Origin: Planctomycetia bacterium
Lineage (GTDB): Bacteria; Planctomycetota; Planctomycetia; Pirellulales; UBA1268
Direction: 5' to 3'
NCBI GenBank assembly: GCA_021414115.1
Contig: JAIOPD010000004.1
Location: 4,982-68,981, forward strand
Length of the DNA: 64,000 nt
Part shown: positions 19,904-38,193 of the stretch, in pieces
How positions within the stretch are numbered: position 1 is the first letter of the stretch
Layout: each line of letters starts with the position of its first letter
Position numbers and translations under genes: made by a program
Notes under the pieces: generated by a model
Database searches by the model: none
What the model was told of the DNA's origin: nothing
The model's input: the letters and a program-made list of their open reading frames with translations, nothing else

Positions 19904-22900
19904 CTATCGCGGCCGAGCGGTAGACCCAGGCACTTCAAACGCCCCGAAGGCGTCGAGGGCGTCACCGGTGTGGCTTCTCAGGAGCGGGTCGGCGGGAACT
20001 TTCCCCTGGGCGGAGGCGGCCTCTTGCTGCCGCCAGCGGCGGGCGTGGATCACGAGGTCTTCCGGCGGACCCTCGACGACGATGTGGCCGCCGCCGGCAC
20101 CCGCCTCGGGGCCCAGATCCAGCACCCAGTCGGCCGCCGAGATCACCTCGAGATTGTGCTCCACCACGAGCACCGTGTTGCCGGCGTCCACCAGCCGCTC
20201 GAGCACGTGCAGGAGCTTCTCGATGTCGGCGAAGTGGAGGCCCGTCGTCGGCTCGTCGAGGATGTAGAGCGTGCTCCCCGTGCCGGGCTTGGCAAGTTCG
20301 CGGGAGAGCTTGACCCGCTGGGCCTCGCCACCCGAGAGCTGCGGCGCGGGCTGGCCGAGCGTGACGTAGCCCAGGCCGACATCGACGAGCGTGTCGAGGA
20401 TCCGCGCGACGTGCGGCACCGTGTCGAAGAAGTTCGCCGCGTCGGCCGCGCTCATCTCCAGCACGTCGGCGATCGATTTGCCATGCCACTTCGCCTGCAG
20501 TGTCTCCGACGAATAGCGGCGGCCGCGACAGGCCTCGCACTCGACCCACACGTCGGGGAGGAAGTGCATCTCGACGCGGCGCTGCCCGAGCCCCTCGCAG
20601 GCCTCGCAGCGGCCGCCCGCGACGTTGAACGAGAACGTGCGGGGCGTGAAGCCGCGGGTTCGCGATTCCGGCACCTTCGCATAGAGCTGACGAATATGGT
20701 CGAAGACGCCGGTGTAGGTCGCCGGGGTCGAGCCGGGAGTCGAACCGATCGAGTCTTGATCGACCAGGATCACTTTGTCGATCTGGTCGAGCCCCTTGAG
20801 GGCGTCGAACTGACCCGGCTGTTCCCGGGCGGCATGGAGTCGCCGCGCCAGCGCCCGCCAGAGCACCTCCAGCACGAGCGAGGTTTTTCCCGAGCCGCTC
20901 GGGCCGGTGACGGCTGCCAGGACACCGAGCGGAAACCGCGCGTCGACGCCCTTGAGCGTGCGGTGACGAACCCCGCGGAGATCGAGCCAGCCCGTCGGCT
21001 CGCGACGGCCCTGCTTCGCCTTCCGCGCGAGCACCGCGTCGCAGGCCCGCCGCTTCGAGAGATACGGCCCCGTGACGCTCTCCGGCAACGTTTCGAGCTT
21101 CGCGGGCGCGGCGGACGCCACGATCCATCCCCCCTCGCGGCCGCTACCGGGGCCGAAGTCGAGGGCGTGGTCGGCCGTCGCGACCACGTCGCGGTCGTGC
21201 TCGACGACGACGATCGTGTTACCGAGGTCGCGGAGTTTTCCGAGGGCCGCGATCAGGCGGTGGGTGTCGCGGGGATGCAGCCCGATCGTGGGCTCGTCGA
21301 GCACGTAGAGCACGCCCGTCAGTCCGCTGCCCACCTGCGCGGCCAGACGGATTCGCTGCAACTCGCCCCCGGAGAGACTCCCGGCGGGCCGGCCCATGTC
21401 GAGGTAGTCGAGGCCGACGTCCACGAGAAACGACACCCGCGCCTTGAGCTCACGGAGGAGATCGCCGGCGATCTTGCGATCGGCGTCGGAGAGCGTGATC
21501 GTGGCAAGCTCATTGTGGAGACGTCCGAGTGGCATCCGGCCCCAGACGTCGAGCGTGCGGCCCCAGAGTGTGACGGCGCTGGCCACGTCGGCGAGCCGGC
21601 TGCCGCCGCATTCGCTGCACGGCACCTCGTCCATCACGGCATCGACCTTGCCGCGGAGGGCGACGACGAGGCGGGCCGCCTCCTCGCAGGCGGCTTCGAG
21701 GCCTTTGAAGCGGAAGGAGAACCAGGGGGCCTGACGGGTGGAGCGCGTATTCCCCGCGCTTGCGCTTGGGGCTTCCTCAGGACGGGAGGGCGAGGTGATG
21801 GGCCGCGTATTCCCCGCGCTTGCGCTTGGGGCTTCCTCGGAGGTGGCGGTAATGGCGGCCGCGGGTTGCCGGGAGCGAGGAAGGGGGACGTCGATCCACT
21901 TGTCGCCCGTGCCCTCGAAGAGCACTCGCTGCTGGAGGCCCGAGAGATCGGCGAGCGGCACGTTGATCGGCAGGCCGGTGGTCTTGCAGAGGGCCTCGAG
22001 CATCGCCCGCCCGATTCGCCTCCCCTGCGGTCCGTCGAGCATCGGCCAGAGGTCGAGCGCGCCCTCCCCGAGCGACAGCGACGGATCGCGGACGAGGGCC
22101 TTGCGGTCCACGCCCGTTCGCGTGCCGAGGCCGTCGCAACTCGGGCACCAGCCGAGCGGACTATTAAAGGAGAACTGCCGCGGCTCGAGCGGCTTGAAGC
22201 CGCGACCGCAGTCGGGGCAGGCCAGCCGGCGGCTCAACACCTCGACCGGCCAGTCGGGCTCGTCGAGCGGCGCGCCGTCGTGGTCGTCCACGCAGCGGGC
22301 CACGAGCATCGTGCCGCCGCCGGCATCGAAGGCCGCCTCGACGCTCTGCGCCAGGCGACTGCGGGCCGCAGGATCGGCGGCGACCCGGTCGATCACGATC
22401 TCGATTCGGCTCTTCCGCTTGCGATCGACCGTGGGCTTTTCATCGAGCCGCACCGTGCGGCCGTCGATCCTCACGCGGACATGGCCCGCGGCCAAGAGCG
22501 ACGCGAAGAGCGCCTCGGGAGTCTGGCCGACCTTGATCTCCACGGGGGCGAGCAGCAGGAGTTTCGTGCCCGCGGGATGGACGAGCAGCCGATCGACCGT
22601 CTGATCGACGCTTTGCGATCCCACCGGCGTGCTGCAGTCAGGGCAGTGCATCTGCCCGAGCCGTGCCGCAAGCACGCGGAAGTGGTCGTACATCTCGGTG
22701 AGCGTGCCGACGGTGGACCGCGGCGTGCTCCCCGTCGCCCGCTGCTCGATCGCCACCGCCGGTGACAGGCCCTCGATCTTCTCGAAGAGCGGCTTCGGCA
22801 CCTGGCCCACGAACTGCCGCGCATACGGGGAGAGGCTTTCGACATACCGCCGTTGTCCCTCCGCATAGAGCGTGTCGAAGGCGAGCGAGGTCTTGCCGCT

Positions 22901-25900
22901 GCCGCTGGGCCCGCAGCAGACGGTGGTCTGGCCGCGGGGAATGTCGGCGTCGACGTGCTTGAGGTTATGCAGCGCGGCGCCGCGGACGGTGATCGAAGGC
23001 GGCCCGGGATCGCGGGACTTCTTGCCGACCGTGGCCAGCATCGCCTGGATGGCCTTGGCGGGATCGGCCACCTTCTTGCGGCGCACGGCGGGCTTGCGGG
23101 GAGCCTTGGCCCGCGCCTTCGCCGCCGCGAGCAGCGGGGCAAGTGCCTGCCCCGTGTGCGAGGCTTTGACCTTCGCCACCTGCTCGGGGGTGCCCTCGGC
23201 GACGATGCGGCCGCCGCCGCCGCCCCCTTCCGGTCCGAGATCGATTACCCAGTCGGAACGCTTGACGACGTCGAGGTTGTGCTCCACGACGAGCACCGTG
23301 TTGCCCGCATCGACGAGTCGCTCGAGCACGGTGAGCAGCTGCCGCACGTCGGCCATGTGCAGGCCGGTCGTCGGCTCGTCGAGGATGTAGAGCGTTTTCC
23401 CGGTGGACCGCTTCGCCAGCTCTCGCGAGAGTTTCACCCGCTGGGCCTCGCCCCCCGAGAGCGTCGGCGAGGGCTGTCCGAGATGGAGGTAGTCGAGACC
23501 GACGTCGTGAAGCGTCTGCAGCTTGCGGGAGATGTCGGGGGCGTCGGCGAAGAGTTCGAGCGCCTCGCCGATCTCCATGTTCAAAAGATCTGCGACGCTC
23601 TTCCCTTTCCAGCGGACTTCGAGCGTGTCTTTGGCAAACCGGGCCCCGTCGCAGACGTCGCAGGTCACCCACACATCGGCCAGAAAATCCATGTCGAGGC
23701 GGACGGAGCCGTTGCCCTCGCAGGCCTCGCACCTCCCTCCCGATACGTTGAAGCTGAAGCGGCCCGCCTTCCAGCCCCGCTTCTTCGCGTCGGGCAGCAT
23801 CGTGAACAGGTTGCGGATGTCGTCCCAGACCTTCACATACGTCGCCGGATTGCTCCGCGGCGTGCGGCCGATCGGCGACTGGTCGATCACGATCACCTTG
23901 TCGAGCTGCTCGGCCCCGATGATCCGGTCGAACTCGCCCGGCTGGGCCACCTCGCTGCCGAGCAGCCGGCGGAGCTCCGGCTCGAGCACGTCGCCCACCA
24001 GCGAACTCTTGCCGCTGCCCGACACGCCCGTCACGCAGACGAGCAGGCCGAGCGGAATCTCGACGTCAACGCTCTTGAGGTTGTTATGCCGCACGCCTTC
24101 GAGCCGCAGGGACTTCCCGGTGGGTGGCCGTCGCTTCGCGGGCACCTCGATCGCGTCGCGACCCGAGAGAAAAGCGCCGGTGAGGCTGCGGTCGCTCTTG
24201 GCCACGTCGTCGGGCGTGCCCGCGGCCACCACCTCGCCCCCGCGCTTGCCGGGCCCGGGGCCAAAGTCGACCACCCAGTCGGCCGCCCGGATCGTGTCTT
24301 CGTCGTGCTCGACCACGACCACCGTGTTGCCCTTGTCACGCAGGGCCTCGAGCGCGCCCAGAAGCTTGACGTTGTCGCGGGCATGCAGGCCGATCGAGGG
24401 TTCGTCGAGCACATAGAGCACGCCCGAGAGCCCCGAGCCGATCTGGGCGGCCAGCCGGATCCGCTGGCTCTCGCCCCCCGAGAGCGTCGGAGCCTTGCGA
24501 TCGAGGGCGAGATAGCCGAGGCCGACGCGGTCGAGAAACTCGAGCCGGCTCGAGATCTCCTTCATGAGTTCCACGGCAATCACCCGCTGCGTGTCGTCGA
24601 GCACGAGCGCCGTGAGAAACTCCCGGGCCTCCGCGATCGGCAGGGCACAGAGCGCGTCGAGCGAGAGCTCCGCCTCGCGGCTGGTCGCGGCCCGCCACGC
24701 CTTCGAGGCCGTGCGAATCCGCACCGCGCGGGCCTGTGGCGAGAGCCGCGCCCCCTGACAGTCGTGGCAGGGGGTGATGCTCATCAGTTTTTCGAGCATC
24801 CGACGGAGGATGCTGCTCTTGGCGTTGCGCCAGCGGTTGGCGAGCAGGGCACAGAGGCCCTCGAACTTCGTCTTCGCGCCCCGCTCGGCGCGGCCCCGCT
24901 TCCACGAGAGCGTGACCTCGTCGATGCCGGTGCCGCTGAGCCAGATCTTCTTCTGCTGCGCGGTGAGATTCTTCCAGGGCGTGTCGAGGAGCGTGCCGGG
25001 ATCGAGTTTCTTCTTCGCCTCCGCATGCGCGGCCACGCCCGTGAGCAGCCGCCGCAGCCACCGCGGCATGTCGCGAAAACTGCCCAGCACGCCGATCGCC
25101 CCCTTGCGGAGCGTCTTGTCGGGGTCGGTGACGAGCTTCGCGGGATCGATGCCGTAGATGTCGCCGAGGCCTTCGCAGGTCGGGCAGGCTCCCTGCGGAC
25201 TATTGAAGCTGAAGAGCTGCGGCTCGGGCGTCGAGTAGCTCACGCCGCAGGTCACGCAGGCATAGCGGCTCGAAAGGACGAGGTCTGAAACCGGTGCCTG
25301 ACCCCGTTTCGGAGCGGCGCTTTTCTCGGCGTCGGCCGCCGCCGGCTCCACGGCCACGATCACCTGCCCACCGCCGGTCTTGAGCGCGAGTTCCACCGCC
25401 TCGGCCAGCCGGCTCCGCGTGGCCTCCGAGGGAATCAGCCGGTCGATCACGACGTCGATCGTGTGCTTGAGCAGCTTTTCGAGCGGCGGCGGGTCCTCGA
25501 CCCGGCAGACGCGGCCATCGACCCGTGCCCGCGTGAAGCCCTGCCGGACCAAGTCGGTGAAGAGGTCGCGGTGTTCCCCCTTTGCGTCGCGAACGAGCGG
25601 GGCGAGGAGCATCACCCGCTGGCCGTCACGGGCCGCGAGGATTCGCTCCACGATCTGGTCTCGCGGCTGCGCCTCGAGCACCGCGTCGCAGGCCGGGCAG
25701 TGGGCCGTGCCCACCCGCGCGTAGAGGACTCGCAGAAAGTCGTGGATCTCCGTCATCGTGGCGACGGTCGAGCGGGGATTCGTGCCTGCCGACTTCTGGG
25801 CGATCGAGATCGACGGCGAGAGGCCCGTCACGCTGTCGACATCGGGCCGGGGCAACTGCCCGAGGAACTGTCGGGCGAAGGTGGAAAGGCTTTCGACATA

Positions 25901-26062
25901 CCGCCGCTGCCCCTCGGCATAGAGGGTGTCGAAGGCGAGGCTCGACTTGCCCGAGCCGCTCACACCGGACAGGCAGACGAGCCGCCCTCGGGGCAGGCCA
26001 ACCGTGACATCGCGGAGGTTGTGCTCGCGGGCGCCCCGGACGACGATGGGAGGAACGTGCAT
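19904..26062 (-). CDS. uvrA: Excinuclease ABC subunit A, double-length (two fused UvrA units)
   Basis: 2052 aa. Four Walker A motifs (GVSGSGKSS x2, GPSGSGKTS x2), four LSGGE signatures, FDTLYAEGQRRYVESLS twice, and Zn-finger CxxC pairs. Confidence 0.96.
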   Translation of the reverse strand: MHVPPIVVRGAREHNLRDVTVGLPRGRLVCLSGVSGSGKSSLAFDTLYAEGQRRYVESLSTFARQFLGQLPRPDVDSVTGLSPSISIAQKSAGTNPRSTVATMTEIHDFLRVLYARVGTAHCPACDAVLEAQPRDQIVERILAARDGQRVMLLAPLVRDAKGEHRDLFTDLVRQGFTRARVDGRVCRVEDPPPLEKLLKHTIDVVIDRLIPSEATRSRLAEAVELALKTGGGQVIVAVEPAAADAEKSAAPKRGQAPVSDLVLSSRYACVTCGVSYSTPEPQLFSFNSPQGACPTCEGLGDIYGIDPAKLVTDPDKTLRKGAIGVLGSFRDMPRWLRRLLTGVAAHAEAKKKLDPGTLLDTPWKNLTAQQKKIWLSGTGIDEVTLSWKRGRAERGAKTKFEGLCALLANRWRNAKSSILRRMLEKLMSITPCHDCQGARLSPQARAVRIRTASKAWRAATSREAELSLDALCALPIAEAREFLTALVLDDTQRVIAVELMKEISSRLEFLDRVGLGYLALDRKAPTLSGGESQRIRLAAQIGSGLSGVLYVLDEPSIGLHARDNVKLLGALEALRDKGNTVVVVEHDEDTIRAADWVVDFGPGPGKRGGEVVAAGTPDDVAKSDRSLTGAFLSGRDAIEVPAKRRPPTGKSLRLEGVRHNNLKSVDVEIPLGLLVCVTGVSGSGKSSLVGDVLEPELRRLLGSEVAQPGEFDRIIGAEQLDKVIVIDQSPIGRTPRSNPATYVKVWDDIRNLFTMLPDAKKRGWKAGRFSFNVSGGRCEACEGNGSVRLDMDFLADVWVTCDVCDGARFAKDTLEVRWKGKSVADLLNMEIGEALELFADAPDISRKLQTLHDVGLDYLHLGQPSPTLSGGEAQRVKLSRELAKRSTGKTLYILDEPTTGLHMADVRQLLTVLERLVDAGNTVLVVEHNLDVVKRSDWVIDLGPEGGGGGGRIVAEGTPEQVAKVKASHTGQALAPLLAAAKARAKAPRKPAVRRKKVADPAKAIQAMLATVGKKSRDPGPPSITVRGAALHNLKHVDADIPRGQTTVCCGPSGSGKTSLAFDTLYAEGQRRYVESLSPYARQFVGQVPKPLFEKIEGLSPAVAIEQRATGSTPRSTVGTLTEMYDHFRVLAARLGQMHCPDCSTPVGSQSVDQTVDRLLVHPAGTKLLLLAPVEIKVGQTPEALFASLLAAGHVRVRIDGRTVRLDEKPTVDRKRKSRIEIVIDRVAADPAARSRLAQSVEAAFDAGGGTMLVARCVDDHDGAPLDEPDWPVEVLSRRLACPDCGRGFKPLEPRQFSFNSPLGWCPSCDGLGTRTGVDRKALVRDPSLSLGEGALDLWPMLDGPQGRRIGRAMLEALCKTTGLPINVPLADLSGLQQRVLFEGTGDKWIDVPLPRSRQPAAAITATSEEAPSASAGNTRPITSPSRPEEAPSASAGNTRSTRQAPWFSFRFKGLEAACEEAARLVVALRGKVDAVMDEVPCSECGGSRLADVASAVTLWGRTLDVWGRMPLGRLHNELATITLSDADRKIAGDLLRELKARVSFLVDVGLDYLDMGRPAGSLSGGELQRIRLAAQVGSGLTGVLYVLDEPTIGLHPRDTHRLIAALGKLRDLGNTIVVVEHDRDVVATADHALDFGPGSGREGGWIVASAAPAKLETLPESVTGPYLSKRRACDAVLARKAKQGRREPTGWLDLRGVRHRTLKGVDARFPLGVLAAVTGPSGSGKTSLVLEVLWRALARRLHAAREQPGQFDALKGLDQIDKVILVDQDSIGSTPGSTPATYTGVFDHIRQLYAKVPESRTRGFTPRTFSFNVAGGRCEACEGLGQRRVEMHFLPDVWVECEACRGRRYSSETLQAKWHGKSIADVLEMSAADAANFFDTVPHVARILDTLVDVGLGYVTLGQPAPQLSGGEAQRVKLSRELAKPGTGSTLYILDEPTTGLHFADIEKLLHVLERLVDAGNTVLVVEHNLEVISAADWVLDLGPEAGAGGGHIVVEGPPEDLVIHARRWRQQEAASAQGKVPADPLLRSHTGDALDAFGAFEVPGSTARPR
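21744..21838 (-). repeat. Two in-frame direct copies (35 bp, 60-bp period) of REP-like unit B2 inside uvrA
   Basis: CGCGTATTCCCCGCGCTTGCGCTTGGGGCTTCCTC at 21744-21778 and 21804-21838, each encoding EEAPSASAGNTR. The core matches the intergenic unit at 38149-38174. Confidence 0.95.
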
Positions 26063-26188: not shown

Positions 26189-26261
26189 GGGGCGGTAGCT
26201 CAACTGGGAGAGCGCGGCGTTCGCAATGCCGAGGTTGGGAGTTCGATCCTCCTCCGCTCCA
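26189..26261 (+). tRNA. tRNA-Ala (anticodon CGC), CCA not encoded
   Basis: Acceptor stem GGGGCGG/CCGCTCC with G3:U70, D-arm TAGCTCAACTGGGAGAGC, anticodon arm CGGCG-TT CGC AA-TGCCG, T-arm GTTCGATC, discriminator A. Confidence 0.95.
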
Positions 26262-38012: not shown

Positions 38013-38174
38013 GGGAAGCCCCAAGCGCGACCGCGGGGTATTCGACCTCCACCCCAACCCGCTCCGCGTGAGTGCTTCGGGCGGCCACCCGTCTACCCGT
38101 CGCTCGCGCTCCGGGCTTCCCAAGCACCGGATGCCGCGGCTCTTCGCCGGGAAGCCCCAAGCGCAAGCGCGGGG
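38013..38174. repeat. REP-like triplet B2>-57 bp-<B1 .. B2>
   Basis: Units at 38013-38038, 38096-38121 (inverted) and 38149-38174, between convergent genes. Confidence 0.9.
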
Positions 38175-38193
38175 AATACGCGATCCCCACCCA

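What the first reader, a model, noticed from the sequence alone, without database searches (positions are those of the whole stretch)
21744..21838. Intergenic REP-like unit inserted in frame, twice, in the UvrA coding sequence
Seen: two identical 35-bp copies at a 60-bp (20-codon) period encode EEAPSASAGNTR twice, and uvrA stays open. The DNA is the same B2 unit found between genes. Comparing the two UvrA halves, the first has GTGIDEVTLSWKRGRAERGAKTKFEGL and the second has GTGDKWIDV-[~60 aa]-FKGL, about 45 extra residues at the same position. Unlike the intergenic copies, these are direct repeats without B1. Known: palindromic elements translated within proteins exist (Rickettsia RPEs). Inference: the site is the exposed hairpin of the UvrA insertion domain, so the repeat may add protein loops or an mRNA structure that affects translation of a DNA-repair gene.
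Basis: partly seen in the sequence, partly recalled or inferred. Interest (0 to 1): 0.75.

Follow-up and report, generated by a model that had tools for sequence, protein, structure and literature searches.

The report
Palindromic repeat units translated inside uvrA
Two copies of a short repeat that litters this planctomycete's genome between genes sit in frame in a flexible loop of its only UvrA DNA-repair protein, a kind of event already reported for uvrA genes in other bacteria.

Summary
Two identical 35-bp units lie 60 bp apart at window 21744-21778 and 21804-21838. They are in frame in a 2052-aa fused double UvrA (19904-26062, minus strand) and encode EEAPSASAGNTR twice. The unit belongs to a repeat family of about 390 "B2" and 320 "B1" copies in this 4.35-Mb genome. 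Only the two uvrA copies lie inside a coding region. The insert sits at the tip of the insertion-domain beta-hairpin of the second UvrA module, and the model predicts it to be disordered. The same loop is 6-14 aa in most orthologues. In other species of the genus it holds that species' own repeat unit: G022/G064, G058, G021 and G006 carry four different families or variants. G064 has one copy, so a single insertion followed by a 60-bp tandem duplication is likelier than two insertions. No unusual mRNA structure is predicted. The best reading is a tolerated selfish or REP-like insertion in a relaxed surface loop. REPs inside uvrA were already reported by Di Nocera et al. 2013 (PMC3733652). I file this as a new member of a known kind; the recurrent use of this one loop appears to be new. 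Reads could not bridge the repeat, so support for the insert comes from independent assemblies.

The parts
19904..26062 (-). uvrA, a fused double UvrA of 2052 aa. It is the only uvrA found in this assembly.
   Evidence: ORF and translation. PDB UvrA matches at E = 1e-267. PF17760 and PF17755 occur in both halves. tblastn finds no other uvrA at E < 1e-10. Fusion of two uvrA genes in Planctomycetes is stated in PMC8567305 (passage).
22961..26062 (-). UvrA module 1 (residues 1-1034). Its insertion-domain hairpin LSWKRGRAERGAKTKF is intact and conserved.
   Evidence: PF17755 matches its full length, profile 1-110/110. The hairpin columns are at least 90% conserved across the 64-sequence alignment.
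19904..22960 (-). UvrA module 2 (residues 1035-2052), which carries the insert.
   Evidence: PF17755 matches only profile positions 1-70/110 and stops at residue 358 of the module, where the insert begins. Module 2 is 46.8% identical to module 1.
21716..21886 (-). The expanded hairpin loop, 57 aa: PLPRSRQPAAAITATSEEAPSASAGNTRPITSPSRPEEAPSASAGNTRSTRQAPWFS.
   Evidence: Loop delimited against orthologues. AlphaFold gives strands at 355-358 and 414-417 and pLDDT under 50 for 364-409 of module 2.
21804..21838 (-). REP-like B2 unit, the first copy in gene order. It encodes EEAPSASAGNTR.
   Evidence: Exact 35-mer. Similarity to family copies covers 33 nt.
21736..21778 (-). REP-like B2 unit, the second copy in gene order, plus about 8 nt of the usual downstream spacer (CTCCACCC).
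   Evidence: Exact 35-mer. About 150 genomic copies match over 42 nt.
38014..38182 (.). Intergenic example of the composite element: B2, spacer, B1 (an imperfect inverted copy), then B2.
   Evidence: Sequence. As single-stranded DNA, B2 pairs with B1 in a long hairpin of -35.5 kcal/mol, z = -2.19.

Best explanation
A unit of the genome's own interspersed palindromic (REP-like) repeat family entered the uvrA coding sequence. The unit is the B2 arm plus a few bases of its spacer. It landed at the tip of the insertion-domain beta-hairpin of the second UvrA module, in a frame without stop codons. A 60-bp (20-codon) tandem duplication then made two copies.

The insert is translated as a disordered Ala/Ser/Pro/Gly-rich loop of about 43 extra residues and is tolerated. 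In the fused double UvrA, module 1 keeps the conserved Arg/Lys-rich hairpin that canonical UvrA uses on damaged DNA. The module-2 hairpin tip is free to vary.

The same loop has been colonised repeatedly in related species by their own repeat families. No function of the insert is required. Its copy number (1, 2 or 3 in relatives) probably changes by slippage between the direct repeats.

Shown: the identity of the units, their frame and position, their uniqueness among coding regions, and the lineage-specific inserts in relatives.
Inferred: the order of events, neutrality, and slippage.
For: Family membership and uniqueness:
- There are 387 B2 copies (25-mer, up to 3 mismatches) and 324 B1 copies.
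- Only the 2 uvrA copies lie at least 240 nt inside an ORF with coding-like codon usage on both sides. Their scores are 0.20-0.31. The in-frame 5th percentile is 0.22 and the off-frame 95th percentile is 0.09.
- A profile search gave 746 hits at E up to 10. With looser criteria it again returned only the uvrA copies, plus one 17-nt hit at E = 2.4.

Position:
- PF17755 is cut at the insert in module 2 and whole in module 1.
- The stretch left unaligned to M. tuberculosis UvrA corresponds to the ID beta-hairpin 363-377 (PMC11985968 passages; the chain offset of 21 is my inference).
- In the AlphaFold model, strands 355-358 and 414-417 flank residues 364-409, which have pLDDT under 50.

The insert is not ancestral:
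- Of the 90 loops that a motif pattern could parse among 121 orthologue cluster representatives, 39 are 14 aa (PRPxGVxGKGPWF), 9 are 6 aa and 36 are 19 aa or longer.
- The 14-aa form is scattered over the tree.

Lineage-specific inserts:
- G022 has two copies and G064 one copy of the same unit. These genomes hold 450 and 304 family copies.
- G058 carries its own variant (CCCCGAGCGCnAGCGAGGG, 28 copies), read in a different frame as KPRAPARD.
- G021 carries two copies of its own unit, which has 55 genomic copies.
- G006 carries a different palindrome family with 61 genomic sites.
- Of the 7 genus relatives with 6-14-aa loops, all 7 have 0 copies of the family.

Duplication: G000 and G022 share the 60-bp period.

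Independent assemblies: G022 and G064 carry the insert, and the cluster of P0003 has 54 members on 6 contigs.
Against: Conservation of the cores. Between G000 and G022 the two REP cores are identical at 53 of 53 nt, while uvrA as a whole is 87.3% identical (72% at third positions). By my own post-hoc arithmetic this has a chance of about 7e-4. Pure neutral drift does not predict it. It hints at gene conversion from genomic copies or at a constraint at the DNA level. G064 differs at 2 of 27 core positions, both of which are polymorphic within the family.

Only uvrA is hit. Why uvrA is the only coding region hit out of about 700 units is not explained by tolerance alone.

Orphan units. In G010 and G009 the loop units have no other copy in their genomes. 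G010 is only 51% complete. Not every expanded loop can therefore be tied to a living family.

Reads. Logan contigs of the best-holding run break inside the repeat, so no read-level bridge was obtained.

Model quality. The AlphaFold model is of moderate quality (mean pLDDT 68.8).
Confidence: 0.7

Rival explanations
1. The loop is an active landing pad. Once a palindromic unit sits there, REP-type elements home to it, or genomic copies overwrite it by gene conversion. The in-gene units then track each genome's current family and stay at the family consensus.
For: At least four different families or variants occupy the same loop in different species, each matching that genome's own repeat. The cores are identical at 53/53 nt between G000 and G022 against an 87.3% background. 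In all A-like cases with DNA in hand (G000, G022, G064, G058, G021, G010, G009), the GAAGCC end is 5' on the coding strand.
Against: No transposase of the REP-associated type (PF01797) is found in G000, which is 95% complete. G010 and G009 units have no genomic partners. Two other loops of the same protein also collect repeat-derived peptides in relatives, which fits tolerance as well as targeting. Selection against hydrophobic or Cys/Trp-rich translations could explain the orientation bias.
Confidence: 0.2
2. The insert is adaptive. It changes how UvrA handles DNA, for example a longer flexible arm on the insertion domain, or reduced repair giving a mutator phenotype, as Di Nocera et al. speculated for REP-tagged repair genes.
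For: In M. tuberculosis UvrA the ID beta-hairpin is needed for stable binding of damaged DNA (PMC11985968 passages). Repair genes are repeatedly the only REP-tagged coding sequences in a species (PMC3733652 passages). The same holds here. This is the only uvrA in the genome.
Against: The encoded peptides differ in sequence, charge, frame and length between species: EEAPSASAGNTR, KPRAPARD, EARGASR, PLPRGEG, SPERKRRD, and loops of 6 to 90 aa. No common protein feature is selected. The segment is predicted disordered. Module 1 keeps the conserved basic hairpin.
Confidence: 0.08
3. The units act in cis on the uvrA mRNA or DNA, through a translation pause, an RNase site or a protein-binding site.
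For: The cores are conserved at the nucleotide level between G000 and G022. Intergenic REPs are thought to act as RNA elements (PMC3733652 abstract).
Against: The 181-nt RNA folds less well than shuffles (z = +2.34). A single unit folds at -4.9 kcal/mol with z = 0.2. The stable structure of intergenic elements needs the B1 arm (z = -2.19), which uvrA lacks. No Rfam family matches. Relatives do well with 6-aa loops.
Confidence: 0.05
4. Assembly artefact: repeat-induced misjoin or false duplication in a metagenome-assembled genome.
For: The contig comes from a 144-contig assembly. Logan contigs of the best-holding run stop inside the repeat.
Against: The frame stays open through the insert. Two other species' assemblies carry the same unit at the same codon position, G022 twice with the same 60-bp period and G064 once. 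A 54-member protein cluster seen on 6 contigs carries it.
Confidence: 0.02

Closest known systems
Intragenic REPs in DNA-repair genes (Di Nocera, De Gregorio and Rocco 2013, BMC Genomics 14:522, PMC3733652; abstract and passages read)
   Same: Short, high-copy palindromic repeats that are mostly extragenic but translated in frame inside uvrA (both Opitutus terrae uvrA genes, Thioalkalivibrio uvrA), uvrB, polA, recBCD and dnaE2. They occur as single units, dimers or groups, and these genes are often the only REP-tagged coding sequences of a species. The CGTC-tagged class has no dedicated transposase, which matches the absence of PF01797 here.
   Different: A different phylum and a fused double UvrA. 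The units here are direct repeats of one arm only. The tag is CGTA in 76% of copies rather than CGTC or GTAG, and the stem is a 4+3-bp interrupted stem rather than 8-9 bp. The repeated use of one loop by different families across a genus is not described in the passages I read. Where the REPs sit in the published uvrA genes is in Additional file 3, which I could not open.
Rickettsia palindromic elements (RPE) in protein-coding genes (named in PMC3733652 passages; Ogata et al. 2000 recalled, not read)
   Same: Selfish palindromic repeats inserted in frame and translated, apparently tolerated at surface positions.
   Different: RPE-1 elements are longer and occur in many genes of one genome. Here only one gene is hit, by a unit of 35-42 nt. 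Sequence relatedness was not tested.
E. coli BIME-type organisation of REPs (recalled, no call)
   Same: Two unit types in inverted orientation, separated by spacers and reiterated in arrays.
   Different: No sequence similarity was tested, and no RAYT gene is present.
UvrA insertion-domain beta-hairpin of M. tuberculosis UvrA (PMC11985968, passages)
   Same: The host site of the insert is the homologous hairpin, between GTGDKWIDV and WFSFRFKGL.
   Different: In canonical UvrA the hairpin is Arg/Tyr-rich, conserved and required for damaged-DNA binding. In module 2 of the fused protein its tip is hypervariable, 6 to 90 aa.

Membership tests
REP (repetitive extragenic palindromic) elements | High copy number, interspersed, overwhelmingly extragenic | tested here: met
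   There are 387 B2 and 324 B1 copies in 4.35 Mb, and only 2 lie inside a coding region.
REP (repetitive extragenic palindromic) elements | Short (20-40 bp) imperfect palindrome able to form a stem-loop | tested here: inconclusive
   The unit folds as a 4+3-bp stem with a 2-nt bulge at -4.9 kcal/mol, no better than shuffles (z = 0.2). The stable hairpin forms between B2 and B1 (z = -2.19).
REP (repetitive extragenic palindromic) elements | Conserved terminal tetranucleotide tag, GTAG or CGTC (PMC3733652) | tested here: inconclusive
   CGT is 87-96% conserved next to the stem. The fourth base is A in 76% of copies. At least 60 of 386 copies read CGTC. B1 copies in the window and in example arrays read CGTCTA.
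REP (repetitive extragenic palindromic) elements | Units paired in inverted orientation (dimers, BIME-like arrays) | tested here: met
   B2-spacer-B1 composites occur in arrays with periods of 127-155 bp.
REP (repetitive extragenic palindromic) elements | Associated RAYT (IS200/IS605-type Y1 transposase) in the genome | tested here: not met
   PF01797 gives 0 matches in G000 (95% complete), and the control genomes ring. The CGTC class is reported to lack one (PMC3733652).
CGTC-1 to CGTC-4 REP families of Di Nocera et al. | 8-9-bp stem starting with complementary A/T pairs, 4-5-nt loop, CCA-like tail | tested here: not met
   The stem here is CCCC/GGGG plus GCG/CGC with a bulge, and the tail is CTTCC. 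The family consensus sequences are in a figure that is not held, so the comparison rests on the text description only.
UvrA (fused double form of Planctomycetes) | Two complete UvrA units, each with two ABC ATPase sites, a UvrB-binding domain and an insertion domain | tested here: met
   Four SGSGK Walker A motifs and four LSGGE signature motifs. PF17760 and PF17755 occur in each half. PDB UvrA matches at E = 1e-267. Of the 2389 hits, the 120 listed are 1181-2149 aa, mostly about 2000 aa. The fusion is stated in PMC8567305.
MITE (miniature inverted-repeat transposable element) | Terminal inverted repeats flanked by target-site duplications | tested here: inconclusive
   The composite B2...B1 has imperfect inverted ends. 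Target-site duplications were not examined. The uvrA copies carry only one arm.
Rickettsia palindromic elements | Sequence relatedness to RPE families | not tested
   No RPE sequence was fetched. The resemblance is in behaviour only.

The most novel reading that the evidence does not exclude
The tip of the module-2 insertion-domain hairpin of planctomycete fused UvrA may be a true hotspot. Lineage-specific palindromic repeat families would repeatedly home to it, or overwrite it by gene conversion, so that the in-gene units are kept at family consensus while the rest of the loop drifts. That would make the sole nucleotide-excision sensor of these bacteria a standing interface between the repeat families and the repair machinery. 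It would also give a concrete, testable site for the unexplained link between REPs and repair genes raised in 2013.
Probability: 0.2. Interest if true: 0.65.

Novelty: new member of a known kind. Interest (0 to 1): 0.42.

Why it matters
In-frame REPs in uvrA and other repair genes were catalogued in 2013. The open question then was whether repair genes are hit by chance. This case adds a phylum and a fused UvrA architecture. It also adds a precise structural address, the tip of the insertion-domain beta-hairpin of module 2.

It shows that within one genus the same loop carries at least four different repeat families or variants, each matching its host genome. It shows too that uvrA is the only coding region hit among about 700 units here. 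The module-1 hairpin is conserved and the module-2 hairpin is hypervariable, which suggests that the two insertion domains of the fused protein have divided their labour.

None of this changes what is known about nucleotide excision repair. The insert is most likely neutral.

Tried and rejected
- Reads. All runs served were Logan contigs. In the best holder (X1, 0.78 of sampled words) one exact contig ends at 21773 inside the repeat and another starts at 21939. Nothing listed bridges the insert, so there is no read-level confirmation or refutation. Contigs of relatives in X2, X3 and X7 join across 21721-21729 to 21871-21903, and where the intervening letters are listed there are 12-30 of them. 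These are short-loop forms from other organisms.
- No RNA holder was listed.
- mRNA structure was rejected.
- A first GC3-based test for coding context was too noisy and was replaced by a codon log-odds score (then 28, 29).
- A B1 arm upstream of the uvrA units was considered on a weak resemblance by eye. blastn-short coverage there is 5 or less, so it was rejected.
- The G010 and G009 loop units were not found elsewhere in their genomes.
- Rfam returned only a tRNA in the window.
- A possible relic of the unit at module-1 residues about 239-262 (window 25277-25348) was looked at by eye and judged too weak to claim.
- A database-wide search for the peptide in other proteins was considered and not run, because a 12-aa motif cannot reach significance.
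Full report
**Observation.** The window holds a minus-strand ORF at 19904-26062 that is open for 2052 aa. It consists of two complete UvrA units in tandem.
- Each half carries PF17760 (UvrB-interaction domain) and PF17755 (DNA-binding or insertion domain).
- The second half matches solved UvrA structures at E = 1e-267.
- The two halves are 46.8% identical, and no other uvrA is found in the 4.35-Mb, 95%-complete assembly.
[quoted passage not shown] Named relatives in the protein search are Planctomycetes.

Inside the second half, two identical 35-nt units lie at 21744-21778 and 21804-21838, 60 bp apart. They are read in frame as EEAPSASAGNTR twice.

**The repeat family.**
- The unit is one arm (B2) of a genome-wide family. 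There are 387 copies of a 25-mer at up to 3 mismatches, 246 of them exact.
- The consensus is GGAGnnCGTATnCCCCGCGCTCGCGCTTGGGGCTTCC.
- The partner arm B1 is an imperfect inverted copy with 324 copies.
- Between genes the arms form B2-spacer-B1 composites, often reiterated with periods of 127-155 bp.
- As single strands, B2 pairs with B1 in a long hairpin of -35.5 kcal/mol (z = -2.19). A lone unit is not an unusual hairpin, with z between 0.0 and 0.2.
- No IS200/IS605-type transposase (PF01797) is found in the genome. No Rfam family matches the repeats in the window.

**Only uvrA is hit.** I trained a codon log-odds score on 389 long ORFs. On held-out ORFs the in-frame 5th percentile is 0.22 and the off-frame 95th percentile is 0.09.
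- Of the 387 B2 copies, only the two uvrA copies lie at least 240 nt inside an ORF with coding-like flanks on both sides (scores 0.20-0.31). The next best locus scores 0.02-0.09.
- None of the 324 B1 copies qualifies.
- A profile search gave 746 hits at E up to 10. With looser criteria it returned the same two copies plus one 17-nt hit at E = 2.4.
- Copies that overlap gene ends were not counted.

**Where the insert sits in the protein.**
- In module 2, PF17755 matches only profile positions 1-70 of 110 and stops at residue 358 (...GTGDKWIDV). In module 1 it matches end to end.
- Against M. tuberculosis UvrA (3zqj), module-2 residues 2-353 and 435-970 align and residues 354-434 do not.
- I infer a 21-residue offset between chain and protein numbering from the position of the C-terminal zinc-finger hairpin. 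With that offset, the unaligned stretch corresponds to Mt residues about 361-398. That stretch contains the insertion-domain beta-hairpin 363-377.
- A 2025 cryo-EM study describes this hairpin as Arg/Tyr-rich and conserved. It reports that deleting Q361-E381 severely weakens binding of damaged DNA (PMC11985968, passages).
- An AlphaFold2 model of module 2 was built from 64 sequences and has mean pLDDT 68.8, so it is of moderate quality. It shows strands 355-358 and 414-417 flanking residues 364-409, which have pLDDT under 50 and no secondary structure.
- In module 1 the equivalent hairpin (LSWKRGRAERGAKTKF) is at least 90% conserved across the alignment.

**Relatives.** All 40 relatives searched, 24 of them in the same genus, have the fused gene. 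The loop between GTGxKWIxV and FxFKGL varies as follows.
- It is 6-14 aa in G003, G017, G012, G001, G008, G020 and G016. These genomes have 0 copies of the family.
- G022 is 91.9% identical to G000 in UvrA protein sequence. It carries the same unit twice with the same 60-bp period and has 450 family copies.
- G064 carries the unit once and has 304 family copies.
- G058 carries its own variant of the unit, with 28 genomic copies, read in a different frame as KPRAPARD.
- G021 carries two copies of a distinct unit that has 55 copies in its genome.
- G006 carries a different palindromic element of about 95 bp, with 61 sites in its genome, 1 in G000 and none in the three other genomes tested.
- In G010 (three tandem copies) and G009 (one copy) the units have no other copy in their genomes. 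G010 is 51% complete.

In the large protein collection, a motif pattern could delimit the loop in 90 of 121 cluster representatives.
- 39 loops are 14 aa (PRPxGVxGKGPWF), 9 are 6 aa and 36 are 19-90 aa.
- Many of the long loops contain repeated peptides that are translations of such units in several frames and in both orientations: APSASAG, ARSASDG three times, SPERKRRD, GIPRLTPGA, EAQGRKARG, SPGRKPGD, PLPEGEG.
- On a tree of 127 proteins built from 1925 conserved columns, the 14-aa loop is scattered throughout and long loops appear in many separate places.
- These are 90%-identity clusters and kin, not independent events, so I give no test.
- Two other variable sites of the protein, near residues 239-257 and 456-468 of P0001, also hold repeat-derived peptides in relatives. 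One protein (P0007) carries them at three sites.

**History of this insert.** The similarity to genomic copies covers 33 nt of one unit and 42 nt of the other. The latter runs into the usual start of the spacer. No B1 arm is present. A close relative has one copy, and G000 and G022 share the period. One insertion followed by a 60-bp tandem duplication is therefore the simplest history.

Between G000 and G022 the two cores are identical at 53 of 53 nt. The gene as a whole is 87.3% identical, with 72% at third positions, and the spacer between the units has diverged. By my own post-hoc arithmetic that is about 7e-4 under uniform divergence. It leaves room for gene conversion or a DNA-level constraint. 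G064 differs at two positions that are polymorphic in the family.

**Function.** The 181-nt RNA around the insert folds less well than shuffles (z = +2.34), so an mRNA structure is not supported. The encoded peptides differ in sequence, charge, frame and length between species, which argues against a selected protein feature. The most likely reading is a tolerated insertion in a loop that lost its constraint after the fusion, while module 1 keeps the functional hairpin.

**Prior art.** Di Nocera et al. 2013 (PMC3733652; abstract and passages read) reported the following.
- REPs occur inside uvrA: both uvrA genes of Opitutus terrae, a member of the PVC superphylum as are the Planctomycetes, and the uvrA of Thioalkalivibrio.
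- REPs also occur inside uvrB, polA, recBCD and dnaE2.
- Such genes are often the only REP-tagged coding sequences of a species.
- CGTC-tagged REPs lack a dedicated transposase.
- The authors speculated about mutator effects.

The kind of event is therefore known. My literature searches turned up no description of this phenomenon in planctomycete UvrA, nor of a single recurrent loop. Whether the published cases sit in the same hairpin is in a supplement I could not open.

**Limits.**
- No read-level bridge was obtained. Logan contigs break in the repeat.
- Support for the assembly comes from independent assemblies of related species.
- Genomes other than G000 could only be queried by pattern.
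- Gene calls were my own codon-score proxy.

Noticed in passing
L025 (G006:C311) about 620-730: In relative G006, a second copy of its 95-bp palindromic element sits in module 1 of uvrA, after CHVCNGARLSPQARAVRITSRAKGW. There it carries an in-frame TGA, so the gene looks interrupted or split in that assembly. The contig is only 5 kb.
   Followed up: partly
P0001 residues about 239-257 and 456-468 (window about 25290-25348 and 24659-24697): Two further length-variable loops of the fused UvrA hold repeat-derived peptides in relatives, such as KSPGRKPGDS two or three times and LSPREREKG...PLPRGEAGRRPGEGA. G000 itself is short at both sites.
   Followed up: partly
window 26189-26261 (+): A tRNA gene (Rfam RF00005, 59 bits) lies about 130 bp beyond the uvrA start codon, on the opposite strand.
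   Followed up: no
L004/L026 (G010:C15:7367-7530): Three tandem 69-bp repeats in the same uvrA loop, built on a palindromic unit (GAAGCCCAGGGCCGTAAGGCCCGGGG). The unit has no other copy in that 2-Mb, 51%-complete genome.
   Followed up: yes
genome G000, e.g. C26:14868-15227 and C19:23993-24408: Intergenic arrays of up to three B2-spacer-B1 composites with conserved spacers, at periods of 127-155 bp. Of 310 B2 clusters, 239 are single, 65 double and 6 triple.
   Followed up: partly
L047 (G047:C216): The uvrA loop of this relative begins APPVARSRRDRE and then reads as a masked stretch of unknown residues. I left it as it is.
   Followed up: no
window 21716-21886 compared with G003 (L006): The ancestral 14-aa loop DNA is itself GC-rich and partly palindromic (CCGCGGCCGGCGGG). 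It shares GCCCAAGGGCG with the G009 unit's GCCCAGGGGCG. I could not tell whether this similarity guides insertion or is chance.
   Followed up: no
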